Origin: a virus
Taxonomy: Duplodnaviria > Heunggongvirae > Uroviricota > Caudoviricetes
Length of the DNA stretch: 21,381 nucleotides
IMG/VR virus record: IMGVR_UViG_2718217709_000001
Reading direction: 5' to 3' (one strand)
Below the pieces are notes generated by a model. It did no database searches. It saw only the letters and a list, made by a program, of their open reading frames with translations, and was not told the origin of the DNA. A program made the position numbers and the translations under genes. Position 1 is the stretch's first letter. Each line of letters opens with the position of its first letter. Shown here piece by piece: positions 826 to 18,994 of the stretch.

Positions 826-868
826 TGCCCACTCCATGTGATATCGATTGCAAAGAAAGTAAATCTGT

Positions 869-888
869 AACTGTATTTATATACAGTT
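869..888. promoter_or_regulatory. LexA (SOS) box AACTGTATTTATATACAGTT in the dinD promoter
   Basis: Perfect CTGT-N8-ACAG palindrome with AT-rich spacer, directly upstream of the dinD start. Confidence 0.8.
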
Positions 889-1521
889 GTGAGTATCTCA
901 CGTTCTCAGTGTGCTGGGCAAAAAAACATCGCAAAATCTGGAGCAGGCACGCAAAACAGAATTGAAGTTGCGGGGAAGAAAAATGCCGCTCTGTTTGAGT
1001 GGGCGGCATTTGTGAAGGCTGAAAAGTAAGAATTAGTGTTACGAGTCTGAATCTGTTTGTAGAGTGTTGGCTTCAATGCCGCATTGTGGCTGGTTTCTTT
1101 CTAATGCGATTTTTGATTATGTACACCCTTATGTACACGGTTTTTTCGGGTGCTTTGGTCAGAAGCCATTGCCTACATCCCTCAGGCTCGAGGTGTGTAA
1201 CCATGTTCAGGCTTGTTGTCCTGCGCGCGCGTATTGCTCGTGAAATTGCTGTACCCAATAGCGATGTCCGAAAAAACCTCCGTTCTCACATGAAACAGCC
1301 ATGTGCAACTGGTAACTGAACAGACTGGTAGACCGTTCGTTCAGTAAATACCTGATATTTCCGCCAACGAGAAATTGCGTTGGCTGGCAGAGTGCAAATT
1401 TGCACGATGACCTAACCCATTGATTCTTTCGAAAACCTAAATTTGAGGAAGCCGGATAACACCATTTTTATAGCTCCGATCCCTTCAAAGTGAGGGGTAA
1501 TTTGCCAAAACAGAGAGAGCA

Positions 1522-1809
1522 TTACTGTCTCTGGCAATCTTTATCGCGATAACGCCTGAAGTACCCTCTCGCTTCCTCATCCATACCAAGAGCCGAATGA
1601 GTCCGCTTAACTGCCTGTCTTAAATCTCCGAATCTGTCTGTAGTTGCTGGTTGGCGTGCCGCCTTACGGATACATTCAGAGCGTCTGTTTGCTGCATGTT
1701 CACGTTCTTTATCGCCATCTGCCAGCATCATGACTTCTGCCCATCGTGCGGCAGCTCTCCGGTATAGCCCTTTTGACTCCAGCTCTTCAGCTTTCCTGTC
1801 CCTTATCAT
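1522..1809 (-). CDS. PerC-family transcriptional activator-like protein (95 aa)
   Basis: Small basic protein whose N-terminus (RKAEELESKGLYRRAAARWAEVM) resembles PerC/Pch-type regulators as recalled; GAGG RBS 6-7 nt upstream of the ATG. No search run. Confidence 0.5.
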   Translation of the reverse strand: MIRDRKAEELESKGLYRRAAARWAEVMMLADGDKEREHAANRRSECIRKAARQPATTDRFGDLRQAVKRTHSALGMDEEARGYFRRYRDKDCQRQ

Positions 1810-1845
1810 TTCTGCCTCTCAGATTATATAGATAAGCAAAAAGGT

Positions 1846-1957
1846 GTTGGTTCAGTTGGTTCAATTTGTAAAGATCGTTGTTTTTATTGTGTTTTTTCAG
1901 AAATATTGAACCAACATCAACTCATTTTGAACCAACACAGTCCAGCTCTGAACCAAC
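1846..1957. repeat. Iteron/operator-like 9-mer array: GTTGGTTCA x2 in tandem (1846-1863) and TGAACCAAC x3 at exact 21-bp phasing (1907, 1928, 1949)
   Basis: Read directly from sequence; lies in the divergent region between the perC-like gene (-) and the 151-aa gene (+). Confidence 0.6.
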
Positions 1958-2010
1958 AACACAGCGATAGCTTTGTGATTGGTCCGTTATTTTCTGGTTG
2001 ATATTTGAGC

Positions 2011-2040
2011 GTATAACAGTGTTATACAGTGGTATACTGT
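2011..2040. repeat. Three tandem 10-bp units GTATAACAGT / GTTATACAGT / GGTATACTGT immediately upstream of the 151-aa ORF
   Basis: Direct reading; 10-bp periodicity places sites on one helix face; contains ACAGT...ACTGT inverted half-sites. Confidence 0.55.
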
Positions 2041-2059
2041 ATGGATATTACTCACTGAT

Positions 2060-2515
2060 ATGGTCTTTGCAATGAGCAAATCTAATCTGGTCGCGTTCCG
2101 CATCCCATCTGAATTGCAGGATGAGTTTAATCGGTCTGTTCTCGCTTCTGGAGGGGATAAAACCTCCTGGCTTGTTGATGCGATTCGCATGAAGCTGGGA
2201 CAGCCGGAAAAGTCTATTGATTCACGAATGCTTGGGCTGGTGGAGCGCATGGAAAAAGCCGCTGCGTCGCTTATTGCCGGAAAGCCGAACATCCCACCAA
2301 AGCCATATAACGAAACGGCAGTTATAAAGATCATTGCCGATACCATCCGACAGGGATTTGATAATGGGCGTGTGATAGCTGAACGGATCAATGAAGCAGG
2401 CTATCAAACAAAAGCTGGTAAAGCGTGGGATAAAGATATTTACAGCGCGTGGAAGCGTCAGGGAAGCAATGCTGAAAAGTTAAAAGCGGTGATTGATTGT
2501 AAGGTCAGCGTATAA
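2060..2515 (+). CDS. Hypothetical protein, N-terminal ribbon-helix-helix-like segment (putative DNA-binding regulator)
   Basis: 151-aa ORF; N-terminus (LVAFRIPSELQDEF...SWLVDAIR) has an RHH-like beta-strand/helix pattern; alternative start at 2072; no clear SD. Confidence 0.5.
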   Translation: MVFAMSKSNLVAFRIPSELQDEFNRSVLASGGDKTSWLVDAIRMKLGQPEKSIDSRMLGLVERMEKAAASLIAGKPNIPPKPYNETAVIKIIADTIRQGFDNGRVIAERINEAGYQTKAGKAWDKDIYSAWKRQGSNAEKLKAVIDCKVSV

Positions 2516-2594
2516 ACATGAGTGCCCATTAGAAAGCTGCTTGGGCCAATACCTTTATACACCAGCAGGTGGTGACGATAGGTGAGGATCAGGA

Positions 2595-2795
2595 ATGAAA
2601 GGCAGAACGCCACACATTGAACATCAAGCCAACCACTTCTCGGATGTTCGCAATGAGATGATTGCCATTCGCGGTGATATGCACGGAATGGAGCGTCGCC
2701 TAGCAGATAAGATGGACGAGAATCAGAAGTGGATCATCGTCCTGTTGATTTTATCAATTCTTATCCCGCTACTTATCGCATTGGTCACAAAATGA
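2595..2795 (+). CDS. Small protein with C-terminal transmembrane anchor (66 aa), XhlA/holin-like architecture
   Basis: GAGGA RBS 6 nt upstream of ATG; charged helical N-terminus followed by a hydrophobic tail (WIIVLLILSILIPLLIALV). Confidence 0.45.
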   Translation: MKGRTPHIEHQANHFSDVRNEMIAIRGDMHGMERRLADKMDENQKWIIVLLILSILIPLLIALVTK

Positions 2796-3056
2796 ATATC
2801 CAATGTGTATGCTGTCGATGCTACGCGCGCGTACTTGTCGCAAAATATCAGGCAAAGGCCAGATTCAGAACGTCGTGATAACCACCAGCACAACATGAGA
2901 GGTCATGTAACGCGATTTATCACACCAGATACATGTGATTGGTGTACCCGCATAAAACATCGTCATAGCGCGTCCTGTGCGCATATACGCCGATAATCAA
3001 CACATCACCACCACTCTGTCTTATGTAGAGAACAGTTTTATGGTGCTCCCCGCCAT

Positions 3057-3124
3057 CGCGTGCGTACTGGTCGGACACAGCTGCAAAAAATTTTGCAACT
3101 GATACACCTCGCGCGCGTACTGGT
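3057..3124. repeat. Two adjacent copies of a dispersed ~25-bp repeat (CGCGYGCGTACTGGTC...); related copies near 1223, 2824 and 3191
   Basis: Direct comparison of the sequence at 1223-1253, 2824-2848, 3057-3080, 3109-3136 and 3191-3203. Confidence 0.4.
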
Positions 3125-3249
3125 CACGAAATTGGTGTTTTGCTGTGGCAGTGATATCAGAAAAATCTTCCTGTTTCACATAAAGCGGATATGCGCGTAC
3201 TGTAACGGCCCCATCAACGGGGAGCGGATTTGAAATCCCGACCCAAGCT

Positions 3250-3675
3250 ATGTACCAAATGCCATGTCTTGGATATATGATGATTGCCATTCTAAACAAA
3301 GCTAAAGGGAGGGTTGGTGTGAGGGGGCAGGCAGTTATAATTATTTTGTTGGGTTTAATTGTCGCAAAGTTATACCCGACTTTATCGATGGTGTTTTTTG
3401 CCATTATTGGCGCAGCCATCTTTACTTATATCATTAAACATACCGCCTTGTGGTTCTATAAAATTGATATAGTTCAGAAGTTTGTACGTCCTGTGTCGAT
3501 GTTATTACTAGCATTAATACCAATTGGTGTTGCTTATGTAATTGATGTTTTTTACCCTTCGGACACTGAAAGGTGGTTGATAGTTTTGTATTGTTATATT
3601 GGTGTAGCTCTCTTTTGTGGATTTCATTGGTGTTTCGAAAAGATCAATGACTCTATTTCAAAGAATAAAGATTGA
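3250..3675 (+). CDS. Multi-pass membrane protein, AT-rich gene (start uncertain; GTG at 3319 has a strong AGGGAGGG RBS)
   Basis: Translation is dominated by hydrophobic helices (3-4 predicted TM segments); markedly lower GC than surroundings. Confidence 0.5.
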   Translation: MYQMPCLGYMMIAILNKAKGRVGVRGQAVIIILLGLIVAKLYPTLSMVFFAIIGAAIFTYIIKHTALWFYKIDIVQKFVRPVSMLLLALIPIGVAYVIDVFYPSDTERWLIVLYCYIGVALFCGFHWCFEKINDSISKNKD

Positions 3676-3694: not shown

Positions 3695-4020
3695 CTAGTC
3701 ATTATCTGGATCATTAGATAGCCAAGTAATGATGCCCAGTCTGGCGATGGTCCGTTTTTCCTGTTCAGGAAGAGAGTTAAAAAAACTCTTCCATTGAGGG
3801 GAGCGCCTGATACGTGAATCAACAATGTGCCCAGGCGCTTTTCCGTGTAGATTTTTTACTGCGCTCTGGAAGGCTGGCGAGGCAATTAATTTATCCGCAG
3901 CATCAGCCGCCCCTGCTCCACCAGCTAATCGAGCTTTACTCGCCAATCTTGCTCCAATATCAGCCCCAGCAATGGCTCCAAGCGATCCAAAATGAGCGCC
4001 TACCATCGTGCCTATTTTTT
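3695..4020 (-). pseudogene. 3' fragment of a 705-aa cargo gene split by the IS insertion (joins with 7604..9395)
   Basis: Reading frame continues exactly across the IS once the IS and one copy of the GAA duplication are removed (...KHI-QKIGT-MVGAHF...). Confidence 0.7.
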
Positions 4021-4077
4021 GAATGAACCGCCCCGGAAATCCTGGAGACTAAACTCCCTGAGAAAGAGGTAAACAGG

Positions 4078-4404
4078 ATGACTAAAAATACTCGTTTTTC
4101 CCCCGAAGTCCGTCAGCGGGCGATTCGTATGGTTCTGGAAAGTCAGGATGAATATGACTCACAGTGGGCGGCAATTTGTTCCATTGCCCCAAAGATTGGC
4201 TGTACGCCGGAGACTCTGCGTGTCTGGGTTCGCCAGCATGAGCGGGATACCGGGGGCGGTGATGGTGGGCTCACCAGCGCGGAACGTCAGCGTCTGAAAG
4301 AGCTGGAACGTGAAAATCGTGAACTGCGCCGCAGTAACGATATCCTTCGCCAGGCTTCCGCTTATTTTGCGAAGGCGGAGTTCGACCGCCTCTGGAAAAA
4401 ATGA
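4078..4404 (+). CDS. IS3-family transposase OrfA (HTH)
   Basis: 108-aa ORF ([22 protein letters not shown]...) recalled as IS629/IS1203-type OrfA; ends at the AAAAAA slippery run. Confidence 0.85.
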
Positions 4405-4818
4405 TGCCACTGCTGGATAAGCTGCGTGAGCAGTACGGGGTCGGACCGGTATGCAGCGAACTGCATATTGCCCCGTCAACGTATTACCATTGTCAGCAAC
4501 AGCGACATCATCCGGATAAACGCAGTGCCCGTGCGCAGCACGACGACTGGCTGAAGAGAGAGATACAGCGCGTATACGATGAAAATCATCAGGTGTACGG
4601 TGTGCGTAAAGTCTGGCGTCAGTTGTTACGGGAAGGAATCAGGGTGGCCAGATGTACAGTGGCACGTCTCATGGCGGTTATGGGACTTGCCGGTGTTCTC
4701 CGGGGTAAAAAGGTCCGTACGACCATCAGCCGGAAAGCCGTTGCCGCAGGCGACCGCGTAAACCGTCAGTTCGTGGCAGAACGACCTGACCAGCTGTGGG
4801 TGGCTGATTTTACTTACG
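4401..4818 (+). CDS. IS3-family transposase OrfB, 5' exon (interrupted by group II intron after ...[10 protein letters not shown])
   Basis: In-frame continuation is found at 7089; the intervening 2270 bp has group II intron boundaries. Confidence 0.75.
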
Positions 4819-5474
4819 GTGTGCCCGGAGTTCAGGGCGGGCATGGATGCTTAAATGAACCGCGAGTCTGTCTGGAATATTGAACCGGTAACTCACGATG
4901 AGAAACCCAACAATCCCACCGGGTGTGACGGTGGAGAACCTGAGCGGCAGTGACCTGCGGCATGCCCGCAGGGTGATGTAACCCGCTGACAACGGGGATT
5001 GAGGCGAGATCACTAAGCCGAGATGATCCTCAAGGTTAAGTACTGAAAGGCTGAAGAACATGAACCCGTTAATCCGCCTCTGTGGGTTGAAAACGTCACC
5101 ACGGCCTACGTGATCTGACAGGCCGTGCAGGAGGAACTGGCAGTAATACGTAAGCACTGCCGGTCGAAGGTGTTTTGACATGTATGCGAAACACCGGGGC
5201 AGCAGCGTCTATCACGCTTGCGTTGCTGACTTCTGCCAACTTGCGGCAAGCAAGGATAAAGAGTGCGACGGGCAGCCTCCTCAGTATGCCTGAGTCCAGG
5301 CAGGTAAACCGGGGAAGGTCAGCGACGGATGTTAAGGGGGCATGGCTCCGATGACGCGCTGGCTGGCGGAGCTTCCGTAGTAGTCCGCGATGGGGAAAGC
5401 CCATTACATGGCGAAGGGAAGCAGTTTGAATGTGTTTGCGACGTGAATTAACTGACCTAACGAGGTGAAGACCT

Positions 5475-6998
5475 TTGATAATCAGCGAAATGCAACGCAA
5501 GCTTGCCACATGGGCAGTCACCGATCCGTCCCTACGGATTCAACGGCTGCTGCGTCTGATAACACAACCAGAATGGCTGGCTGAAGCGGCGCGGATCACG
5601 CTTTCATCAAAGGGGGCCCATACCCCCGGCGTTGATGGCGTGAACAAAACAATGCTACAGGCCAGACTGGCTGTTGAGCTGCAAATCCTCAGGGATGAAT
5701 TACTCTCAGGCCACTACCAGCCCTTGCCCGCCAGACGGGTTTACATCCCTAAAAGCAACGGCAAACTGCGACCACTGGGTATCCCCGCGTTGCGGGATCG
5801 TATTGTTCAGCGGGCCATGCTGATGGCGATGGAGCCGATATGGGAGAGTGATTTTCATACACTCTCATATGGCTTCCGGCCTGAGCGCAGTGTCCACCAC
5901 GCTATCCGCACGGTGAAATTACAGCTCACAGACTGTGGTGAAACCCGGGGACGCTGGGTGATTGAAGGCGACCTGTCCAGTTACTTCGACACCGTACATC
6001 ATCGACTGCTGATGAAGGCTGTACGCCGCAGGATCAGTGACGCACGTTTCATGACTCTGCTGTGGAAAACCATCAAGGCGGGACATATCGATGTCGGTCT
6101 CTTTCGGGCGGCCAGTGAAGGTGTGCCACAGGGCGGTGTTATATCGCCGCTATTATCGAACATCATGCTGAATGAGTTCGATCAATACCTGCATGAGCGC
6201 TACCTGAGCGGGAAAGCCAGAAAAGATCGGTGGTACTGGAATAACAGTATCCAACGGGGCCGAAGTACGGCGGTCAGAGAAAACTGGCAGTGGAAACCCG
6301 CGGTGGCGTACTGCCGCTATGCCGATGATTTTGTCCTCATCGTCAAAGGCACCAAAGCACAGGCGGAAGCCATCAGGGAGGAGTGTCGGGGTGTGCTCGA
6401 AGGCAGTCTGAAACTCAGGCTGAACATGGATAAGACTAAAATCACCCATGTTAATGACGGCTTTATCTTTCTGGGGCACAGGATCATTCGCAAACGCAGT
6501 CGTTATGGCGAGATGCGAGTGGTCTCAACGATCCCGCAGGAGAAAGCCAGAAACTTCGCCGCATCGCTGACAGCACTGTTATCAGGCAACTACAGTGAAA
6601 GCAAAGTCGATATGGCTGAACAACTCAACCGAAAACTGAAAGGCTGGGCCATGTTCTATCAGTTCGTTGATTTTAAGGCCAAAGTCTTCAGTTATATCGA
6701 CCGTGTCGTGTTCTGGAAGCTGGCTCACTGGCTGGCCCGCAAATACCGTACAGGTATCGCTTCCCTGATGAGGTGGTGGTGTAAATCACCGAAACCGGGT
6801 CAGAGCAAAACGTGGGTTTTATTTGGTAAAACCAATCACGGCAAGCTCAGCGGCGAAATACTGTACCGGTTGGTGGGGCAAGGCAAGAAGCTGTTCCGCT
6901 GGCGGCTACCCGAAGGTAATCCCTATCTGAGGACGGAGACCAGAAACACGTATACATCGCGCTTTACAGAAGTGGCAATGGCGTTCGCCAGCATTTAA
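5475..6998 (+). CDS. Group II intron-encoded reverse transcriptase/maturase (no endonuclease domain evident)
   Basis: 507-aa ORF with RT motifs (GIPALRDRIVQRA, YADDFV) and a C-terminal maturase (X) region; no HNH-like Cys/His cluster at the C-terminus. Confidence 0.9.
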   Translation: MIISEMQRKLATWAVTDPSLRIQRLLRLITQPEWLAEAARITLSSKGAHTPGVDGVNKTMLQARLAVELQILRDELLSGHYQPLPARRVYIPKSNGKLRPLGIPALRDRIVQRAMLMAMEPIWESDFHTLSYGFRPERSVHHAIRTVKLQLTDCGETRGRWVIEGDLSSYFDTVHHRLLMKAVRRRISDARFMTLLWKTIKAGHIDVGLFRAASEGVPQGGVISPLLSNIMLNEFDQYLHERYLSGKARKDRWYWNNSIQRGRSTAVRENWQWKPAVAYCRYADDFVLIVKGTKAQAEAIREECRGVLEGSLKLRLNMDKTKITHVNDGFIFLGHRIIRKRSRYGEMRVVSTIPQEKARNFAASLTALLSGNYSESKVDMAEQLNRKLKGWAMFYQFVDFKAKVFSYIDRVVFWKLAHWLARKYRTGIASLMRWWCKSPKPGQSKTWVLFGKTNHGKLSGEILYRLVGQGKKLFRWRLPEGNPYLRTETRNTYTSRFTEVAMAFASI

Positions 6999-7003
6999 AT
7001 GGA

Positions 7004-7037
7004 GAGCCGGATGCGCTGAAAGGTGCACGTCCGGTTC
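7004..7037 (+). ncRNA. Group II intron domain V (catalytic hairpin)
   Basis: GAGCCGGATGCGCTGAAAGGTGCACGTCCGGTTC, about 50 nt before the intron 3' end. Confidence 0.7.
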
Positions 7038-7060
7038 GGGGAGGAGAGGCAGGGAAATAG

Positions 7061-7561
<501 letters not shown>

Positions 7562-7603
7562 GTTCACAGATAAAACACTCTCCAGGAAACCCGGGGCGGT
7601 TCA

Positions 7604-9395
7604 GAATGTGTTTTGCTGCTAGTTCGTATGGAGCTGTTACCCGATTAAATCTGTTTACAAACTCATTCAGCTTACCAGTAGATATTTCATGCGCTTTAGC
7701 ATTTTTTATTGCTCTGGCAACTTTGTATACATCATATAGTCCGCTCATTGTTTCTTTTGGCAAATGTTCAGCCAAAGTCTTTAGCTGTCCACTGTGTTGC
7801 AAGTTTTGCCACCAATCTGCGAAGCCAGATGGATTAAAGTCGGCCCCACGCTTCCCAGAGGAAAGCATATCTCTTAATGCTGTTCCTACTAGCTCCCTTC
7901 GCAATGTTCTTGATGGAGTATTTTGCATAATCTCACGAAACCCTCTCGCATCACCTTTTGCCATAGATTGAAGAGAATTCGTTACTTTATACGCTATATC
8001 CCCATTAAGTGTTTTCCCGCGAAGATTTACCATTTGCCTTTCTAAGTTTTTTCTCATAGCTACAAGGCGTTGTGCGACTTCGAAATCTCGCAAGTATCCA
8101 GTATTGGATAAGACAGATTTTTGGTCTTCAGCTAAAGCTCCATATAGTCTTGATAGCGCTTCTTTATCAGCATCTTTGTATGGCCCCTGCTTTTTATTTA
8201 GGGCATCACCAACTAAACGCCTTTGCCTGTTTAAATTTGCATACGTTAGGATGCTATCTGGGCCGGGGTTTATTGCTGTAAAAACTCGCTTTTCTATTGG
8301 GTCAAGATTATCCCACCCTCCTAAATCATCAGCGATTTTTTCCAGCATAGTGCTTGTGTTATTTGCTTCGACTTTTGTTCTTGGTGATAGAGCGGAATCA
8401 ACACGTTTATATAACTGATCACTACGGTTTTTTAGTGCTTCCATTCTACTATTTATCTGATAAATATATTTTTCGCTCATAGCTAACGCATCTGGCGCAC
8501 CAGCAACATCATCGATTATCTTGCCAGCACTAGAGGCTAATTCGCTTATTGCTTTATCTTCTTGAGCTTTTAACGCTGATCCTGTCCGTGACTTTAGGGC
8601 TTGCTCTACAGCTTGGTATTGCTCATTTCCTGATAAATGAGAAGGAAGAACTGAATCAACATGAAGCCTATTTGCAGCCTCAACAATTTCTTTCTGAGGT
8701 TTTAGATCTAGCCCTTCAAGCGAAGAGGCAAGATTTGGGTTGCCTTGTGCAGATAACTTACGAATTTTCTCTTCGGCAGGAGTAATCCCCTCAATATCTG
8801 GAATCGAAGAAACATTCTTCTTGGTTAATTTCCCAGCTATTTTATTAATTGCAGGGCCAGCAAGTTCGGCTACAGGGCCAGCCACAGCGCCAATAGCAGC
8901 GCCGGAAGCAACATCGCTATTTGTTCCATTGGCTACAATAGCCCCTTCTCCAGCACCAAGCCCTGCGGCGGCAGCCAGTCTTGCCGCCCCTTTGGGAACC
9001 TGAGAAATAATCCCACCACCACTAACAAATGGCGCTGCTTGTCCAACGAACTCACCAACATCTTGTGCGGTTGATGGTTTTGCCGCTAACTTCTGCTGTA
9101 GAGACTGAATTGCGGCTTGCTCTTCTGGTGTCATATCCTGAAACAGGCCAACACCTTTACCAACATCCATCAATCCACTGAGAACGCCATACATAAAACG
9201 GTCGAAACCGTTAGCATTATTAACAACATTTTCCTGTCTGGAATTTTCCTCTGGTGAAACCAAAGGTGATTGCTGCTGTTCTGGTTGGGCATCAAGCACA
9301 AAACCATCAGGAAGCTGTGAACTATCAGGAAACTGTGAGTTATCAGGTTGTTCATCGAGCACAAAACCTTCCGGTAAGATTACATTTGCTGCCAT
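7604..9395 (-). pseudogene. 5' part (597 codons) of the IS-disrupted 705-aa cargo gene: duplicated LPxGFVLDxQP N-terminal motif, Gly/Ala-rich segment, long helical region
   Basis: ORF 7368..9395 (-); residues after codon 597 are read through the IS right end and are not native; AGGA RBS upstream of the ATG at 9395. Confidence 0.7.
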
Positions 9396-10735
9396 TTTCC
9401 GTTCCTGTAAATGATTTTCTGACCAGTTTTAGGGTTGGTTGCCGTTGCGCCTTCTGATATTCCTCCGGTTGCCGCTTTTGCCTGTCCAGTGCCAGCCTGT
9501 GATGTAGGCTGCCCGGAAACATCGTCAAATAGCTTCGCTTTCCTTCTTTCAAGGCTTTTTCTTAGCCCCTGAGGAATAGTTTCTCCATATGTATCGAGAT
9601 ACTCGTCAACCTGCTGGTTAAACTGCTGCCCCATAGCATTGGCGTTGATTTTTGCGGCGTTAACAATGTTATCCTTTGCCTCCTGCGACAGGCCGTTTCC
9701 AGCATTAAGCTGGTCTATGTATCCTTTGATTTGTCCCCATATGCCATCAGACCGCATTACCTGAACCTGTTCGCCTTCACGAACGACTGACTGCGGGTCA
9801 AGAGATTTCATGTAGTTGAAGATAATCCCAAGTTGGGCAGCGCCAGTATTTACCTTGCTAAGGGCTTGCAGAGAGTTTGCCGCCGCTCTGACAGAGTTAT
9901 AATTTTTGCCAAAATTGGTAATGTCAGAATTTAATCCCTTAATTAAGTCTGCTGACGGCTTACCTTTTTGCCCCAGCTCCATTAGCTTCAATCCCATCTC
10001 ATCTGAGTGAATTTGTGCTCGCTGAGCCCTGTCTAGTTGAGCGTTCTGGATATTTGCCCATCCTCTCGCGTTCTCCATGTCAGCCTGACGCATACTTTCA
10101 TCCAGTCGCCCTTGCTCAAGTCGACGACCTTCCATTTGATCTTTGATATCGAAATACTTCTCATGACCGAGAGAAAACAGCGCCAGATTACCTGCGAAAT
10201 GCTGGAAGCCCTGCGGGTCATTAACCTGCATTTCAGCAATAGTTTCTGGAGGGATACCTAAACGACGCATCTCCTGCTCATTATCCATCATGAACCTGCC
10301 AAATGCGCCCTGACCAAGCGATGAGGCTACCTGTGCTTTGAGCGCCAGATTGCCATAATCATCCCTTTGAGCATCATCGACATAACTCATCCCTTTACGG
10401 ACTTCCTCAAACTCTTCTGGGAATGCTGTAATAAGATTACGCATCTGCTCCCTGTCACCGGACGCATAAGCATCTGCATAACCTTTCTGGAATGCCGCTT
10501 TACGTTCCTGCTGTTGCTGCTGCTTATAAATGTCAGCAACTCCAGCCAGACCACGAAGACCTGTCAGAGCAACGTTATTTGCACCTGAGCGAGCCAGTTC
10601 ATTGTTTTCGCGGATCAGACCAAGCGTTGCGTTAATGTCGCTTGCCTTTGGCGCATTCTCATTTTGCGCACCGATGCCAGCCAGAAAACCACCAGAATTA
10701 ATACCCTGTTGCCACGTAGCCATAAATTTACCCAC
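9380..10735 (-). CDS. Hypothetical Gln/Asn/Ala-rich, predicted coiled-coil protein (about 450 aa; likely ATG start at 10723)
   Basis: Long ORF with no Walker or nuclease motif seen; its end overlaps the start of the next gene by 16 nt; the track start at 10735 is GTG, ATG at 10723 follows the upstream stop by 4 nt. Confidence 0.65.
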   Translation of the reverse strand: MGKFMATWQQGINSGGFLAGIGAQNENAPKASDINATLGLIRENNELARSGANNVALTGLRGLAGVADIYKQQQQQERKAAFQKGYADAYASGDREQMRNLITAFPEEFEEVRKGMSYVDDAQRDDYGNLALKAQVASSLGQGAFGRFMMDNEQEMRRLGIPPETIAEMQVNDPQGFQHFAGNLALFSLGHEKYFDIKDQMEGRRLEQGRLDESMRQADMENARGWANIQNAQLDRAQRAQIHSDEMGLKLMELGQKGKPSADLIKGLNSDITNFGKNYNSVRAAANSLQALSKVNTGAAQLGIIFNYMKSLDPQSVVREGEQVQVMRSDGIWGQIKGYIDQLNAGNGLSQEAKDNIVNAAKINANAMGQQFNQQVDEYLDTYGETIPQGLRKSLERRKAKLFDDVSGQPTSQAGTGQAKAATGGISEGATATNPKTGQKIIYRNGKWQQM

Positions 10736-10901
10736 GTCCAGTTAAAGTGTAAGCCAGCGCCTTATCCATTAATCCCCGAGCAATTTCGTGGATCGTTGGC
10801 GCAACTCCTACCTCTGATTTTTTACGCTGCTCCTCCTGAATTTTCTTTATCGCTTCCATTTGCTTCTCACTTATCAATACTGGCTTTACTGAAATAGCCA
10901 T
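10728..10901 (-). CDS. Small ribbon-helix-helix (Arc/CopG-like) protein, 57 aa, first gene of the cargo operon
   Basis: Strong RBS AAGGGGGG 5-6 nt upstream of the ATG at 10901; beta-strand/helix/helix pattern (ISVKPVLISEKQMEAIKK...IHEIARGLMDKAL). The longer 100-aa track ORF would read through a terminator hairpin. Confidence 0.55.
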   Translation of the reverse strand: MAISVKPVLISEKQMEAIKKIQEEQRKKSEVGVAPTIHEIARGLMDKALAYTLTGRG

Positions 10902-10935
10902 AACGCCCCCCTTAGAACTGTATAAAACAACAGTC

Positions 10936-10941
10936 ATTATA
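10936..10941 (-). promoter_or_regulatory. Candidate -10 hexamer TATAAT for the cargo operon
   Basis: Perfect TATAAT on the minus strand about 35 nt upstream of the RHH start; no convincing -35 found. Confidence 0.3.
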
Positions 10942-10997
10942 GTTTCATAAAACGCAACATTCATCATTGTGATTGCAAAATATGAAACAAATAGCAC

Positions 10998-11030
10998 AAA
11001 AAAATGCCACCGTTCAGTAGCTGGTGGCAT
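10998..11030 (-). terminator. Rho-independent terminator-like hairpin (8-bp GC-rich stem, 11-nt loop, U7 tail) downstream of orf245
   Basis: Minus-strand reading ATGCCACC-loop-GGTGGCAT followed by TTTTTTT. Confidence 0.5.
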
Positions 11031-11394
11031 CGTTCTGTATGTCAGGTTTTGACAGTTTTTTTATGGACTCTAAAAACTATATTTATGGAGTCGCATTACT
11101 CTTCACGGCAGGCGCTTTCCAGTTCTGCCCTTGCTTCTGGCTCCATTGGTAATTTGATTCGCGATCAGCTATGCGGATGGTTTGCTGAACAGGCATAACA
11201 ACATCTCAGAGGCTATTTTTTGAACTACGAAAATTTCGTAGTGCTCACCTTCAAAAACGTCACGCCCTTGTACACTGGATTTTACAAAAGTCTCGTAAAA
11301 CTCTTTGCTGTTCTGGGCTATGTGCCAAACCGCAGCGAATACCTCCGTCTGCCAGATGAGCAAAACATACCTTATAAAGAAAATCGCTGTTTTT

Positions 11395-11499
11395 GCTGTA
11401 CCACCTGTACCACCATGTCACAAACCCTTGTGTGGCGCGGCCTGCAGGTGGTACAGGTGGGTAAAAATGACCTCTCCCCACCTGTACAGACCTGTACCA
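11395..11499. repeat. Iteron-like cluster A: five copies of (A)CCTGTAC(C/A) / GGTGGTACAGGTGG in both orientations
   Basis: Direct reading: 11396-11405, 11405-11414, 11447-11460 (inverted), 11480-11489, 11490-11499. Confidence 0.5.
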
Positions 11500-11504
11500 T
11501 TTAT

Positions 11505-12242
11505 TTAATTTTTACCCATAGCAGCACATAATCCCTTTTTTGAAATATTGAAAAATGCGTTCATTCTTCCCGCTGGCTTAACCTTGTAGCCGCTTGCCAC
11601 CATCGCCGCAATAAATGCTCCGTTGGGGATATAGTGCGGGTGATCACTGTGCTGGTGGTTTATCTGGTTATATCGCTCCACTTCATGCTTCAACGTGTCA
11701 GATGTGGGGTTATCCTGCGGGAAGCTCTCAATCTGGGCATTACTCATCCCGTTGTCTCTGATCCATCTCAGGCAGCTTTTCGCCGATACGATAAATGACG
11801 GGTTATCAAGCGGGTTTTCCCAGTCCGCATTCCGGTTGTGGAGCGCCAGTCCGTCAAGGTTAAATTGTGGGTATTCAGCGGTAATTACTGTCACTGCGTG
11901 GCGGATTTCAGTCTCGTCACAACATGGCTCATCTCCCACACCAGCAGGGTAATAATCTGAACCACCGGGACTGATACAGCGTTTACCACTGAAAGGCCAT
12001 TGCTTCGCCATTTCGGGTGTTGAGTGATTACCGTCGCTCCGTTCGCGCTGTGCCTCTGTCCACTGGCTGGCATATTCAGTAAATGAAACTCTTTGCCCCT
12101 GGCGCATCCAGTGCGCAATCATAATTAAAGTGCGTTCCAGACTTTGGATGTCGCCAGCATTCCCGCACTGTGTAGCGAAACTTTTTAATTCTTCGCGCTC
12201 CGTTCTGGTCATTCCCTGCAGTATGCAATAGTTATTGTTCAT
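11505..12242 (-). CDS. Hypothetical protein (245 aa)
   Basis: GAGAGGT RBS 6 nt upstream of the ATG; overlaps the end of orf76 by 11 nt; followed by the terminator at 10998-11030. Confidence 0.6.
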   Translation of the reverse strand: MNNNYCILQGMTRTEREELKSFATQCGNAGDIQSLERTLIMIAHWMRQGQRVSFTEYASQWTEAQRERSDGNHSTPEMAKQWPFSGKRCISPGGSDYYPAGVGDEPCCDETEIRHAVTVITAEYPQFNLDGLALHNRNADWENPLDNPSFIVSAKSCLRWIRDNGMSNAQIESFPQDNPTSDTLKHEVERYNQINHQHSDHPHYIPNGAFIAAMVASGYKVKPAGRMNAFFNISKKGLCAAMGKN

Positions 12243-12638: not shown

Positions 12639-14990
12639 TTAAAAAACATCATAACCCCCCATACCGATCAGACGGGCAAACGCAGCCTGTAGAACTCCGA
12701 CCTCTGGTAGTTCGTAGAACACGCCATTCCCTCGGTCTGGTCTTCCATGCTTCACCAGCCCCATTTGTGCAAGTGATTTACCCAGTAGTGATCTGGCAGC
12801 TGGTTCTTTAAGCTTTTCCCCACGCTCAAGCGACCACGCTACAAATCGACTAACCATATCCTTTGCAAACAAACGGACTTCGCCATTAAACGGAGGTTCA
12901 TTGATTAGCTCGCCATAAAGAAACAATTCAACGCCAGACAGCCCCAGCAAGATTTCTTCACGTAAGGCATCGGTCTGTGGCGCTCGTTGAGGGTCAAAAC
13001 CTGAGAGATCCACCCCTTTAAGATGCCAAAGCAACTTTGCGGCACCGCCATCATTAAGCCAACTGTACAGCCGATCAAAATACTCCCGGCTCTGTGCTTT
13101 TTCAGGAGATGGCTCAAGCACGAGATAGCGGCGCTCTCTTATCCCTGCCTGTAATACCTGTGTGCTGTTACTGGCAAATATCAACCGGGCAAAATTCGGC
13201 ATTGGTTCAGCATCAATTCCCTTGCGCTCAAGGTTAAACGTCGGTTCGCTAATAATCGCTTTAAGTCTGTCAGCTTCAGACGGCTTGTGGATCGTCACTT
13301 CGTCAGCAAATACCAGTAGCTTGTTAGCAAGTATTGAATTGAAGCGCCCTGAAATATGTCCCGCCCCGTTAATGTGGGCGGCGTACTGCCCCAGTATTTG
13401 CAGCAGCGGTTTAACCGTTGTGCCTTTCCCTGTGCCCGGGACAGATTTCATCACGATTGCCACGGACGGTTTTTCATCAGGCTTTTGGATAATGTGCGCC
13501 ATCCACTGGATAAGATATTGGTATGCCTCTTCATTACCGGCACAGACAACCTGCAACAGGTGATTAAGGTATACCGTGCAATCTCCTTCAATTGGTTCCA
13601 GTGCCAGCCCCTCATACAGATTAAAAACATCGTCAGGGCATTTGTCTGGTACTGGATAAAATCCTACGCCTCCTGGCTTGTAGTTCTTCCCACTCCATGA
13701 CAGCCACGCCGATCCCGCCAGCTTTCTGGCGACTCTCGGTTTATGATGAAAATAATGCTGAAATTGTGATAAATCCTCGAAAACGTGCGATACACCGCCG
13801 GTTTGAGAAGGCTTTAGCGACACCACCTTGTGTTTCCCGCCGATGGTGACATGCGTAAACGTCCGGTTGATTTCTTCGAGGACAGCAATTTCATCATCGC
13901 TTAACACCTCGCCAGAACTGATCTCATTCAGCGCCCCGACTGACTGTTTGTGATTTTTCACCTGCGCCCCTTTCCCCCGTGGCTGGTACATCGAATCTTT
14001 AAATGCTGCTGTGGCTGCCGCCAGCCCGTGTTGTTGGTGATAGTCGTTCCAGTCGGCTTTATAGTCAGTCGGTGGCAGAGACACCCAGCCAGCTACGGAA
14101 ATAGCGGCCCTCTCTGCGGCATCTTTCCCCGTGTTGATCCCTCCACTTTCGGAGTTTCCTTGCTGGTGATCGTTATCTGCGGCAATGATGATTTGTGCCT
14201 GTGGATATGTTCTGCGCATGACTTCCGCTACTGGCAACAGGTTGCCAGCGTCGATTGCTGCCACTGTCATTGCGTCAGGGCGAATTAAATGGCACGACAG
14301 GGCGGTAGCCACCCCCTCAGCAATTATGATGCTGTGAGGTCGTTTCTGTGCGTTTATGGCGTGATATGCCCCTCGCTTTGCTGAACCTGTCAGGAGTCTT
14401 TTTTCACCATGTGAGGTAATAGTCTGTGCTGCTGTGACTGCGCCGGATTTATCCACCAGCGCCAGCAACAGAGATCCATCGGGCAACACAGGGAATGTAA
14501 AATCACCTACCCCTTTCGCAACCAGATAATCAGATTTGCCGTTTACAGCCTTTCTGCGCATGTCATCAAACTGACGGGAAAACGTATCCCGTCTTTGTTG
14601 TTCGTCCTTCTCTGCCCTTTTCAGGCGCTCCTGTTCGCGTCGCTGGCGCTCGGTTTCCAGTTGTTCCCGTTTCTGGCTGGTGGCTTCTGGTGTTTCCGTT
14701 GTCCGGTAATCAATACCCAGAACATCAGCGGCAAGAAGCGCCGCCTCTGTTGTGTCGCAGTTATTTACGCGTTTAATTAAATCCAGCCCATCACCAGCGC
14801 CGCACTGATTACAGATGAAGCTACCGCGCCCGTTGTCATCGAACCGGAATCGATCTTTGCCCCCACATGCAGGGCAGGGAGCATGACGGCGCGGAGAGTC
14901 AGGGACATTTATGTTCAGGCAGTCCAGCACATGAGGCCAGTTGTTTTCAGACGCACTGATAACCTGACGGATAAGATCAATGTTTCGCAT
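12639..14990 (-). CDS. P4 alpha-type primase/helicase (N-terminal zinc ribbon, Toprim-like middle, C-terminal P-loop NTPase)
   Basis: 783-aa ORF; CPACGG...CNQCG zinc-binding motif near the N-terminus; Walker A VPGTGKGT in the C-terminal half. Confidence 0.85.
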   Translation of the reverse strand: MRNIDLIRQVISASENNWPHVLDCLNINVPDSPRRHAPCPACGGKDRFRFDDNGRGSFICNQCGAGDGLDLIKRVNNCDTTEAALLAADVLGIDYRTTETPEATSQKREQLETERQRREQERLKRAEKDEQQRRDTFSRQFDDMRRKAVNGKSDYLVAKGVGDFTFPVLPDGSLLLALVDKSGAVTAAQTITSHGEKRLLTGSAKRGAYHAINAQKRPHSIIIAEGVATALSCHLIRPDAMTVAAIDAGNLLPVAEVMRRTYPQAQIIIAADNDHQQGNSESGGINTGKDAAERAAISVAGWVSLPPTDYKADWNDYHQQHGLAAATAAFKDSMYQPRGKGAQVKNHKQSVGALNEISSGEVLSDDEIAVLEEINRTFTHVTIGGKHKVVSLKPSQTGGVSHVFEDLSQFQHYFHHKPRVARKLAGSAWLSWSGKNYKPGGVGFYPVPDKCPDDVFNLYEGLALEPIEGDCTVYLNHLLQVVCAGNEEAYQYLIQWMAHIIQKPDEKPSVAIVMKSVPGTGKGTTVKPLLQILGQYAAHINGAGHISGRFNSILANKLLVFADEVTIHKPSEADRLKAIISEPTFNLERKGIDAEPMPNFARLIFASNSTQVLQAGIRERRYLVLEPSPEKAQSREYFDRLYSWLNDGGAAKLLWHLKGVDLSGFDPQRAPQTDALREEILLGLSGVELFLYGELINEPPFNGEVRLFAKDMVSRFVAWSLERGEKLKEPAARSLLGKSLAQMGLVKHGRPDRGNGVFYELPEVGVLQAAFARLIGMGGYDVF

Positions 14991-16481: not shown

Positions 16482-17330
16482 GTGCCACCTCCATGCGGAT
16501 ACGACCAGCAAAAAAGCAGACGTGATCGCGCACCAGAGAACGGCGAGCATCGCGTTCAGACTCGGCAGCAATATGATGAATTTTGGCGGTAATTGTCGGG
16601 CAATCGCGGCGAACTGCGGCGATAATCCAGATAAATTGCGTTTTTTGGGTAGGGGTAGTAGCCAGCATGTGGCAGCCTCCTTCAGATAGCAGGTTACGCT
16701 ACCACCGGAAACGCCAATTTCGCTGGTGGTAGCCCAGACAGGGTTGGCGTAACCGGCTCTGAAGGATACCGGCGCTTCCGAAGAAGCCCCCGCCTGAGCC
16801 ACCATTGATTGACAAAGGCGCTGGATTATACACCAACGCCCAAAAAATGGGTGAGTCAGACCTACGACATAAAAAAAGACGCTTGGCGCGTCATATGTCG
16901 CCTTCAGAATTTTTAGGACGCCAATCCCGGCACCCGTTTTATGAGGTGCCTTATAACCATAAACCGTGTTGCCGCATAACGGCAAGCTCTTTTTTATGGA
17001 CTCCGAAAACTCACTATTGGAAGAACCAGAAGCACAGTACATCGCGCTCATTTCGTTAACGTCACGCGCGTGGACGAAGGTTTTTGTGGAGTCACTACAC
17101 GAGCAGAGAAAGCCATCTACGACCAGAAATTCTCTGGCATAGCCGCTGACCTTCTCAACGCTAACACCATCGACCGTAATTTCTGACATAGTTAAGGCAT
17201 CCGCTCCTACCACCAGCAAATGATAAACTTTGCTTGTATCTGCTGTATTAATGTCTGACTTTGCTGTCATATTGCTGGATTTTGGCGACATACCAGCCAG
17301 TGAAAATATCTTCTTCTGGGCGGTTAGCAT
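16263..17330 (-). CDS. Long open frame (355 aa); 5' part looks like a genuine gene, 3' extent doubtful
   Basis: GGAGG RBS and ATG overlapping the upstream stop by 4 nt; the frame stays open to 16263 but overlaps two well-formed small genes with poor codon usage there. Confidence 0.35.
16474..16668 (-). CDS. Hypothetical small protein (64 aa, MLATTPTQ...)
   Basis: Strong RBS AAGGAGG 7 nt upstream; all eight Arg codons are CGC/CGT and Leu mostly CTG, whereas the alternative long frame uses CTA/TTA/AGG/ATA here. Confidence 0.45.
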   Translation of the reverse strand: MLATTPTQKTQFIWIIAAVRRDCPTITAKIHHIAAESERDARRSLVRDHVCFFAGRIRMEVAHD

Positions 17331-18776: not shown

Positions 18777-18994
18777 CAGGCCACCTTCCCGCGGCGTTCT
18801 GCCAGCCAGTTATTAATTTCCACCGCATCAAACGCAGTCACGTTATCTGTTAGCTTCACTGGGCGTGGAAGAGTGCCATTTTTAACCCATCTATCAATAG
18901 TAGGCAGTGAAACACCTAGCAATTCCGGCATGCGAAAGCGACGGATGTATCCAGTTGTTGGGATAGCTGATGATGCTGGCTTGTGTACTGTCAT
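18776..18994 (-). CDS. alpA: AlpA-family (MerR-like HTH) prophage transcriptional regulator
   Basis: 72-aa ORF; HTH segment LPELLGVSLPTIDRWVKNGTLPRPVKL typical of AlpA-type regulators of P4-like elements; position downstream of int. Confidence 0.7.
   Translation of the reverse strand: MTVHKPASSAIPTTGYIRRFRMPELLGVSLPTIDRWVKNGTLPRPVKLTDNVTAFDAVEINNWLAERRGKVA

What the first reader, a model, noticed from the sequence alone, without database searches (positions are those of the whole stretch)
1223..3203. Dispersed ~25-bp repeat family (GCGCGCGTAYTGGTC-RCGAAATTG...) across the non-coding stretches at the left end of the island
Seen: related copies in the same orientation at 1223-1253, 2824-2848, 3057-3080, 3109-3136 and a partial copy at 3191-3203, all in non-coding DNA between the perC-like gene and the membrane-protein gene. 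They are irregularly spaced (not a CRISPR array) and do not fit REP/BIME as I recall them. They could be regulator sites, remnants of a small repetitive element, or recombination scars.
Basis: seen in the sequence. Interest (0 to 1): 0.4.

Follow-up and report, generated by a model that had tools for sequence, protein, structure and literature searches.

The report
Phage packaging-signal copies in a satellite island
The short repeats are real, and they match the DNA-packaging recognition sequences found inside the small-terminase genes of P22-like phages, so they probably let this phage-parasitic island get packed into its helper phage's capsids, a step that was unexplained for this island family.

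Summary
The repeat family is real: four same-strand copies (1222-1248, 2822-2848, 3055-3081 degenerate, 3108-3134) plus a weak half-site. The window is an EcCIMP1-like phage-inducible chromosomal island (PICI) inserted between yicC and dinD.

Read on the minus strand, the repeat ("B box", TTTCGNGACMAGTACGCG) matches one place in the genome of Kapi1, the proven helper phage of EcCIMP1. That place is codons 55-63 of its Sf6-type small-terminase gene (score 24.9; next best 5.8; best of 200 shuffles 19.1).

Two copies also carry a second motif ("A box", GAAGRTTTTTNNGANATCAC). Its only strong hit in phage P22 is the experimentally defined P22 pac site (25.5 against 10.5; shuffles at most 20.0).

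In 68 islands chosen only by primase homology, B boxes occur 56 times on the operon strand, never on the other strand and never in shuffles. They sit at different positions and in different reading frames.

Best explanation: these are cis-acting pac-site mimics for two terminase types. Variable cargo genes lie downstream of them in the inferred packaging direction. Packaging function is inferred, not shown. The main rival is that they are inert terS-derived recombination scars.

The parts
1222..1248 (-).
   Evidence: PWM 35.7; pattern hit. In other E. coli islands homology breaks exactly at 1224 and at 1248, so only this core is shared between cargo variants.
1255..1282 (-). A box copy 1 (P22-pac-like): CGGAGGTTTTTTCGGACATCGCTATTGG
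   Evidence: A-box PWM 25.1. It is part of the ~100-nt unit homologous to the copy-4 unit.
2822..2848 (-). B box copy 2: ATATTTTGCGACAAGTACGCGCGCGTA
   Evidence: PWM 38.6. It contains an exact 14-mer of Kapi1 terS. Homology to islands with other cargo (Abi, HTH gene) starts at 2815.
3055..3081 (-). B box copy 3, degenerate (lacks the TTTCGN part); left arm of a 53-bp tandem duplication with copy 4
   Evidence: PWM 11.5. In strain AR_0017 (L004) copies 3 and 4 are fused into one, i.e. a deletion between them.
3080..3099 (.). 20-bp near-palindrome GCTGCAAAA-AA-TTTTGCAAC between copies 3 and 4 (perfect GTTGCAAAA-NN-TTTTGCAAC in other islands)
   Evidence: Read from the sequence. Absent from the single-copy form L004. 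Function unknown.
3108..3134 (-). B box copy 4: CAATTTCGTGACCAGTACGCGCGCGAG
   Evidence: PWM 39.2. Its 18-mer TTTCGTGACCAGTACGCG is identical to the second common enterobacterial Sf6-type terS allele.
3145..3172 (-). A box copy 4 (P22-pac-like): AGGAAGATTTTTCTGATATCACTGCCAC
   Evidence: A-box PWM 28.1. 16 of 22 positions are identical to the P22 pac site GAAGATTTATCTGAAGTCGTTA (my count).
3191..3203 (-).
   Evidence: Below both PWM thresholds. It aligns with the equivalent end of the copy-1 unit.
17074..17101 (+). Third A box, inverted relative to the others, inside the N-terminal part of the ash-family ORF
   Evidence: A-box PWM 28.7. It is conserved at this place in 11 related islands, including EcCIMP1 (PWM 30.9).
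2815..3322 (.). ~510-bp conserved module holding copies 2-4, flanked on both sides by variable cargo
   Evidence: 94-99% identical in 11 distinct loci, but with frequent 1-2-nt indels. It also occurs downstream of the ejection-protein genes in a genuine P22-like phage contig.
1047..21381 (-). EcCIMP1-like PICI: integrase, AlpA-like HTH, AntA/B, Ash, DUF5906 primase, P22-like ejection-protein homologues, PerC. It continues past the window end.
   Evidence: Annotation of the identical locus. Genomes with the empty site match only 838-1046. Family identification.

Best explanation
The repeats are cis-acting packaging signals (pac-site mimics) of a phage satellite.

The island is an EcCIMP1-like PICI. 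It has no terminase gene and depends on P22-like helper phages.

Phages of that type are reported to keep their pac site inside that gene.

A companion motif 35-39 nt upstream (A box, GAAGRTTTTTNNGANATCAC) copies the 22-bp pac site of P22-type terminases.

Inferred mechanism: helper TerS binds these boxes on replicated island DNA, and TerL cuts nearby. Headful packaging then runs in the sense direction, towards lower window coordinates. It passes through the cargo genes and perC and across att. In situ it would continue into the neighbouring chromosome.

Cargo genes (Abi, Doc toxin and others) lie downstream of the boxes. This is the arrangement proposed to favour cargo exchange by lateral transduction.

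Shown here: the sequence identities, the strand bias and the distribution. Inferred: terminase binding, cutting and packaging direction.
For: 1. A PWM built only from window-family island copies gives one outstanding hit in the 39-kb Kapi1 genome. It lies in terS at 18872 (24.9; next best 5.8; best of 200 shuffles 19.1).

2. Kapi1 is the experimentally shown helper of EcCIMP1. That paper states the island has no identifiable terminase gene and that its packaging mechanism is uncharacterised (PMC11773190). L118/L119 match the published description of the EcCIMP1 locus and carry the same boxes.

3. A PWM from 17 island A boxes has its top hit in P22 at position 2-29. That is the annotated, experimentally defined pac site (25.5; next 10.5; shuffles at most 20.0).

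4. The A-box pattern in IMG/VR lies inside P22 gp3-like terS genes in 114 of 118 cases.

5. An unbiased set of 68 loci was chosen by primase homology (1.22 Mb). B-box hits number 56 on the primase strand, 0 on the other strand and 0 in shuffles. They are found in 35 of 68 loci, mostly the closer relatives.

6. In those relatives the boxes lie either just upstream of the conserved Ash domain or after the gp16-like gene. They are read in different frames or lie in non-coding DNA. That fits a DNA-level site better than a peptide.

7. Around copy 1, the flanks on either side have been replaced in different strains while the 24-bp core is kept.

8. pac inside the TerS gene, citing Leavitt 2013 for Sf6, is stated in bioRxiv 10.1101/851345. 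Accessory genes between pac and the element end, as a lateral-transduction arrangement, is described in PMC12829572.
Against: - No experiment links the boxes to packaging.
- Similarity to terS is limited to about 18-24 bp. A whole-region BLAST against Kapi1 gives only E of about 0.3 for each copy.
- The exact Sf6 pac sequence could not be read here because Leavitt 2013 is not held. That it lies in the DNA-binding-domain part of the gene is my recollection, and the B box sits at the edge of that part.
- Sf6-type terS genes show no striking extra DNA-level conservation at the B box in a low-diversity set.
- Kapi1 itself has no A box.
- EcCIMP1 transduction by Kapi1 is reported as very inefficient.
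- The copy 2-4 module also sits in a real P22-like phage, where extra pac sites have no obvious use.
- One A box is inverted.
- About half of the primase-selected islands, mostly the more distant ones, have no box.
Confidence: 0.55

Rival explanations
1. The copies are inert scars. They are leftover fragments of small-terminase genes from past recombination between the island (or its phage-derived arm) and helper phages. The short conserved stretch merely serves as microhomology where cargo modules get swapped.
For: - Cargo junctions coincide with box edges (1224, 1248, 2815).
- Copies 3 and 4 have recombined to give a deletion in L004.
- A 52-nt, 96% identical fragment of a helper-type antirepressor gene lies nearby at 1419-1470.
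- Variation between copies falls mainly on third codon positions of the terS frame, with all four CGN Arg codons and Q/K as in terS alleles. This fits origin from diverged coding sequences.
Against: - Scars would not show a 56:0 strand bias across 35 islands.
- Scars would not recur at a different position (the ash N-terminus) in relatives, nor form arrays of 3-7 boxes within 450 nt (L204).
- Scars would not juxtapose internal pieces of two unrelated terS families, one of which is exactly the functional pac site.
- No longer terS remnants flank the boxes, and no TerS-like ORF exists in the island loci then in hand.
Confidence: 0.2
2. The boxes are binding sites for an island-encoded protein. 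They could be replication iterons for the primase/helicase, or operators for AlpA, the RHH protein, PerC or Ash. On this view the match to phage terminase genes is either incidental or a way to interfere with helper late genes.
For: - Iteron-like arrays with 22-90-nt spacing occur in L204, L148 and L144.
- Placement next to ash and the primase in many relatives is conserved.
- Orientation is strict.
Against: - Two independent motifs each map uniquely to the terminase gene of a P22-like phage, one onto the defined pac site. This is unlikely for island-specific operators.
- The copy 2-4 module also occurs in a phage that lacks the island's replication genes.
- No promoter-like or Rfam feature lies at the boxes.
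Confidence: 0.15
3. The repeats are simply a conserved peptide motif (F-R-D-Q/K-Y-A-R) of small paralogous genes on the minus strand, such as the ORF running through copies 4 and 3.
For: - An ORF through copies 4 and 3 is intact in some islands in three different ways.
- PGAP sometimes annotates it.
Against: - The ORF is broken by indels or a stop in most islands sampled.
- It has no Pfam, NCBIfam, PDB or phage homologue.
- Copies 1 and 2 and the perC-proximal variant (seen in related islands, not in this window) are not in comparable ORFs.
- In relatives the box is read in other frames.
Confidence: 0.05

Closest known systems
Phage P22 pac site (22-bp asymmetric site inside gene 3; Wu et al. 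2002; annotated in BK000583 at 4-25)
   Same: The island A boxes share the pattern GAAGRTTT.TC.GA..TC..TA(CGCG). The P22 pac site is the single top hit of the island-derived PWM. The window A boxes match 15-16 of 22 positions (my count). Like the P22 site, they are asymmetric.
   Different: The A boxes are not inside a terminase gene. They are present in 2-3 copies per island (up to 7 in L204). They differ from the P22 site at 6-7 positions whose importance for gp3 recognition I could not check.
Sf6-type small terminase gene (gp1, Pfam PF20901) and its internal pac site (Leavitt et al. 2013)
   Same: The B box equals codons 55-63 (E/D-F-R-D-K/Q-Y-A) at 17-18 of 18 nt. Both common enterobacterial alleles are represented among the island copies.
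   Different: Only about 18-24 bp are shared, and the islands have no terS ORF. The published pac coordinates could not be read here, so overlap with the B box is unverified.
Satellites that carry their helper's packaging site: cos-site PICIs such as EcCICFT073 with Rpp, and SaPIbov5 with both cos and pac (own knowledge; Fillol-Salom 2019 is cited in PMC11773190)
   Same: The principle is the same: an island without its own full packaging machinery carries the helper's recognition sequence in cis. SaPIbov5 is a precedent for two packaging specificities in one island.
   Different: Here the sites are pac-type for headful P22-like phages. They are multi-copy, come from inside terS genes of two unrelated families, and no redirecting protein (Rpp or TerS) has been identified.
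EcCIMP1 (Pick, Stadel and Raivio 2025, PMC11773190)
   Same: Same gene set and order. The window island is a relative inserted at yicC/dinD instead of tRNA-Thr. EcCIMP1 itself carries the same boxes.
   Different: The paper does not describe these repeats and leaves the packaging mechanism open.
Short boundary sequences or mobile regulatory cassettes that mediate module shuffling in phage genomes (lambdoid 'linker' sequences; T4-type PeSL cassettes; own knowledge)
   Same: These are short conserved repeats in one orientation at the edges of variable cargo, and recombination occurs between copies.
   Different: The boxes have no promoter or stem-loop, and they map onto terminase recognition sequences.

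Membership tests
P22-type pac site | Sequence matching the 22-bp asymmetric site GAAGATTTATCTGAAGTCGTTA | tested here: met
   The island A-box PWM picks the P22 pac site as its unique top hit (25.5 against 10.5; shuffles at most 20.0). The window copies match 15-16 of 22 positions.
P22-type pac site | Location inside the small-terminase gene (gene 3) | tested here: not met
   The window A boxes lie in non-coding DNA or pseudo-ORFs (1255-1282, 3145-3172) and in the ash ORF (17074-17101). In IMG/VR, 114 of 118 pattern hits are in gp3-like genes and the remainder lie outside them.
P22-type pac site | Recognised by TerS, with packaging series initiated nearby | not testable with these tools
   Needs transduction or virion-DNA end mapping.
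Sf6-type terS gene (PF20901) | Intact ORF matching the Sf6_terminase profile | tested here: not met
   A TerS HMM finds no ORF in the island loci then in hand. Frames bearing the repeats score only 4-9 bits over 9-16 aa.
Sf6-type pac site | Sequence identity with the pac-bearing part of terS | tested here: inconclusive
   The B box is the unique hit in Kapi1 terS. However, the mapped pac coordinates (Leavitt 2013) could not be read.
EcCIMP1-like PICI | Integrase, AlpA, primase and PerC in the same order, no capsid or terminase genes, about 20 kb, flanked by att repeats | tested here: met
   Annotation of the identical locus, comparison with the NGF1/EcCIMP1 locus, and the paper's description. 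The window island additionally carries IS insertions.
EcCIMP1-like PICI | Helper-dependent excision and transfer | not testable with these tools
   Shown for EcCIMP1 with Kapi1, not for this island.
CRISPR array | Regularly spaced identical repeats with unique spacers | tested here: not met
   Start-to-start spacings are 1600, 233 and 53 nt, and the copies are 69-94% alike.
REP/BIME or other described RNA/repeat family | Imperfect palindromic units, or an Rfam match | tested here: not met
   No Rfam hit at E up to 1. Apart from the (CG)n run, the units are not palindromic.

The most novel reading that the evidence does not exclude
EcCIMP1-like islands carry modular arrays of mimics of the packaging sites of two unrelated small-terminase families (P22 gp3-type and Sf6 gp1-type). 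This would let one satellite exploit helpers of either type. The arrays sit upstream of a cargo slot, so lateral transduction would drive the swapping of defence and virulence genes. As a by-product, the B box would pinpoint the still poorly defined recognition sequence of Sf6-type terminases.
Probability: 0.4. Interest if true: 0.75.

Novelty: new variant of a known kind. Interest (0 to 1): 0.62.

Why it matters
EcCIMP1-like islands are common in E. coli. The copy-2 unit is found in 558 of 5,426 complete genomes. They carry PerC-type virulence regulators and defence cargo such as Abi and Doc toxin modules.

The only experimental study of the family could not say how the island is packaged. 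A defined pair of short motifs that map onto helper terminase recognition sequences turns that open question into a simple experiment.

It also offers a sequence signature for finding such 'type C' satellites, which current tools cannot classify. It suggests how one satellite can use helpers with different terminases. Finally, it explains why the variable cargo sits where it does.

Tried and rejected
- **ParE/RelE-like toxin.** The C-terminal part of the minus-strand ORF through copies 4 and 3 looked toxin-like from memory. I found no Pfam, NCBIfam, PDB or phage support. Its homologues are only hypothetical E. coli/Salmonella proteins in many frame variants. Dropped.
- **Integrase arm sites or duplicated att ends.** The att-proximal repeats are a different motif (TATGTACAC), and the copies do not resemble the att core.
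- **Break at copy 3 in one IMG/VR genome.** It looked like a repeat-mediated junction but is an IS66-family insertion with an 8-bp target duplication.
- **Genome-contig scans.** The scan with the gp16-like protein found nothing. The 22-mer pattern scan gave 55 single hits, mostly chance matches in GC-rich genomes plus a Neisseria repeat. Only 4-5 were real terS genes, and no arrays were found outside E. coli islands. I first over-read these short matches as terS fragments and then withdrew that reading.
- **A box derived from the VFRW codons of Sf6-type terS.** The A-box PWM does not hit Kapi1 terS. It hits the P22 pac site instead.
- **Extra synonymous-site conservation at the B box within Sf6-type terS genes.** Inconclusive, because the 56 sequences are too similar.
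- **Promoter/terminator and Rfam scans.** Nothing at the boxes.
- **Leavitt et al. 2013.** Not held in the library.
Full report
**Observation**

The 15-nt core GCGCGCGTAYTGGTC occurs four times on the + strand with at most one mismatch, at 1225, 2825, 3058 and 3111. About 0.9 matches are expected even at three mismatches. The repeat finder groups the same copies.

The units around copy 1 and copy 4 align over about 100 nt (score 39 against 15.6 +/- 2.3 for shuffles). The similarity is therefore not just a CGCGCG run.

- Copies 3 and 4 are the two arms of a 53-bp tandem duplication.
- The 'partial copy' at 3191-3203 is a 9-11-nt half-site inside the copy-4 unit.
- Copy 1 lies left of perC, about 180 bp from the island end.

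**Context**

The window is E. coli chromosome. dinD occupies 1-837. An integrative island inserted between yicC and dinD follows. Genomes with the empty site match only 838-1046, so the island starts at about 1047.

Its genes are: tyrosine integrase, AlpA-like HTH, AntA/B, DUF4222, Ash, DUF5906 primase, homologues of P22 ejection proteins gp20 and gp16, a membrane protein, an RHH protein and PerC.

The same architecture at tRNA-Thr in strain NGF1 (L118/L119) matches the published description of EcCIMP1. EcCIMP1 is a 20-kb phage-inducible chromosomal island that is excised and transferred only with the P22-like helper phage Kapi1. The authors found no terminase gene and state that the packaging mechanism could not be characterised (PMC11773190).

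**Variation around the copies**

Window 2815-3322 is a conserved module, 94-99% identical in 11 distinct loci. It has frequent 1-2-nt indels, so it is not a conserved coding sequence. Variable cargo lies on both sides:
- To the left of copy 2: a small ORF here, Abi or an HTH gene elsewhere.
- To the right of 3322: different membrane or secreted proteins.

Around copy 1 the homology to other strains ends at 1224, where a Doc-toxin module replaces 1155-1223 in strains 042 and E20. It also ends at 1248, where a 765-nt gene follows in Ecol_244. So only the 24-bp core is common to these variants.

One strain (AR_0017) has copies 3 and 4 fused, i.e. a deletion between them.

The minus-strand ORF through copies 4 and 3 is intact in only some islands. 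It has no recognisable family.

**What the repeat is**

On the minus strand every copy reads F-(R/H/C)-(D/E)-(Q/K)-Y-A-R. Differences between copies fall mostly on third codon positions. All four CGN arginine codons occur.

Scanning IMG/VR with the repeat found, besides this island family, unrelated phages where the same DNA encodes the most conserved motif of Sf6-type small terminases (Pfam PF20901, PDB 4DYQ family).

Kapi1's TerS is of this type...STVFRWLAKHEDFRDKYAKATEARAD.

A weight matrix was built only from copies in window-family islands of the E. coli genome collection. It has one outstanding hit in the Kapi1 genome, at terS codons 55-63 (24.9; next best 5.8; best of 200 shuffles 19.1) (a broader matrix gives 31.0 against 8.8).

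The two common enterobacterial terS alleles (CGC GAC AAG and CGT GAC CAG) are both mirrored among island copies. Window copy 4 is identical over 18 nt to the second allele.

By protein profile, similarity to TerS does not extend beyond 9-16 residues, and the island loci then in hand hold no terS ORF.

**A second motif**

Copies 1 and 4, and arrays in more distant relatives (L204, L219, L200, L144), also carry a second motif, GAAGRTTTTTNNGANATCAC(TACGCG). In copies 1 and 4 it lies 35-39 nt upstream of the B box in the sense direction.

A matrix from 17 island copies does not hit Kapi1. In phage P22 its single strong hit is position 2-29, GAGAAGATTTATCTGAAGTCGTTACGCG. That is the annotated, experimentally defined pac site (25.5; next 10.5; shuffles at most 20.0). 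The sequence is also quoted in PMC9611059.

In IMG/VR the A-box pattern lies within P22 gp3-like terS genes in 114 of 118 cases.

The window has three A boxes: 1255-1282 (-), 3145-3172 (-), and an inverted one at 17074-17101 (+) inside the ash ORF. The last is conserved in EcCIMP1 and nine other relatives.

**Unbiased distribution**

Sixty-eight IMG/VR loci were chosen solely by homology to the island primase (1.22 Mb).
- B boxes: 56 on the primase strand, none on the other strand, none in shuffles. They are present in 35 loci, mostly the closer relatives. All 13 loci that carry P22-like ejection-protein genes have them.
- A boxes: 35 in total, none in shuffles.

In many relatives the B box lies about 148 nt upstream of the conserved Ash domain, inside the ash ORF but in a different reading frame. 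In others it lies after the gp16-like gene, as in this window.

A motif kept in one orientation, at different positions, in coding and non-coding contexts and in different frames, behaves as a DNA site rather than a peptide.

**Interpretation**

Two short motifs in the island map onto internal sequences of two unrelated terminase gene families. One of those sequences is the proven pac site. The other lies in the gene where the Sf6-type pac is reported to be (10.1101/851345 citing Leavitt 2013). That it lies in the DNA-binding-domain part of the gene is my recollection of the abstract.

The island family lacks a terminase gene, yet EcCIMP1 is specifically transduced by a phage with the Sf6-type TerS.

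The simplest reading is that the boxes are pac mimics recognised by helper TerS.

In the sense direction they are followed by the cargo genes, perC and the island end. Accessory genes placed between pac and the element end are exactly what has been described for SaPIs and pac prophages as favouring lateral transduction (PMC12829572). This would explain why cargo junctions abut the boxes.

Binding, cutting and packaging direction are all inferred.

**Caveats**

- The similarity to terS is short.
- The published Sf6 pac coordinates could not be checked.
- Sf6-type terS genes show no clear extra DNA-level constraint at the B box in a low-diversity sample.
- Kapi1 has no A box.
- EcCIMP1 transfer is inefficient.
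- The copy 2-4 module also sits behind the ejection-protein genes of a genuine P22-like phage contig.

**Rivals**

- Inert terS-derived recombination scars that act only as microhomology for cargo exchange. Supported by the junctions, the copy 3 x copy 4 deletion and a nearby 52-nt antirepressor fragment.
- Sites for an island-encoded regulator or replication protein.
- A peptide motif of small ORFs.

None of these explains as well the unique mapping of both motifs to terminase recognition sequences together with the 56:0 strand bias.

**Novelty**

Satellites that carry a helper's packaging site are known, for example cos-type PICIs and SaPIbov5.

I found no report of multi-copy pac mimics of two terminase types in a Gram-negative PICI without a terminase gene, nor any description of these repeats. 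I rate this a new variant of a known kind.

Noticed in passing
window 1118-1138; L001 36690-36760: TATGTACAC repeats occur just inside both island ends: two copies at the left end and four or more next to the integrase gene. They are likely integrase arm-type binding sites. A short shared stretch, TCTGAATCTG at about 1047-1056, may be the att core.
   Followed up: partly
window 1419-1470: A 52-nt fragment is 96% identical to the Kapi1 antirepressor gene (Kapi1 13227-13278). It is 92% identical to roi/antirepressor genes of HK620, Stx and other lambdoid phages. It is stranded in non-coding DNA between copy 1 and perC.
   Followed up: partly
window 1846-1961: Several TGAACCAAC / GGTTCA repeats lie between the divergent perC-like gene and the RHH gene (2060-2515). 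They could be operators. They are conserved in related islands (L003).
   Followed up: no
window 3080-3099: A 20-bp near-palindrome (perfect GTTGCAAAA-NN-TTTTGCAAC in other islands) lies between copies 3 and 4. It is missing when the two copies are fused.
   Followed up: partly
window 3695-9395: The gp16-like ejection-protein gene is split: fragments lie at 3695-4006 and 7368-9395. About 3.3 kb is inserted between them, holding IS3-family transposase ORFs (from 4078) and a 507-aa ORF (5475-6998). The otherwise identical locus in NZ_LR883050 has an IS1 there instead.
   Followed up: partly
window 9380-12242; L118 6534-12320; L123 27948-32582: This satellite family encodes its own homologues of the P22-like virion ejection proteins (gp14/DUF2824, gp7, gp20, gp16). 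They are 34-82% identical to those of the helper Kapi1. This is unusual cargo for a PICI, and its role is unknown.
   Followed up: partly
L066, L081, L085, L087, L092-L094, L103, L105, L111, L114 (Neisseria genomes): The 22-mer also occurs once in each of about a dozen Neisseria species. It sits in a shared, non-terS context (...DRQRQTRDK*FQDQYARA...). This suggests an unrelated conserved element, or a prophage site that contains the same sequence.
   Followed up: no
L011 6190-6230 / L017 470-500: An IS66-family element is inserted immediately next to copy 3 in one IMG/VR genome, with an 8-bp target duplication CACAATGG.
   Followed up: yes
window 868-890: A LexA-box-like palindrome, CTGTATTTATATACAG, lies upstream of dinD. 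It is intact despite the island insertion about 160 bp away.
   Followed up: no
L004 1447-1485; L118 4257-4295 and others: A variant B box (GCTACGC-GCGCGCGTACTTGTC-CCGAAATACCAG) sits just downstream of the terminator hairpin of a divergent perC allele. The number of GC dinucleotides varies between strains, which suggests slippage in the (CG)n run.
   Followed up: partly
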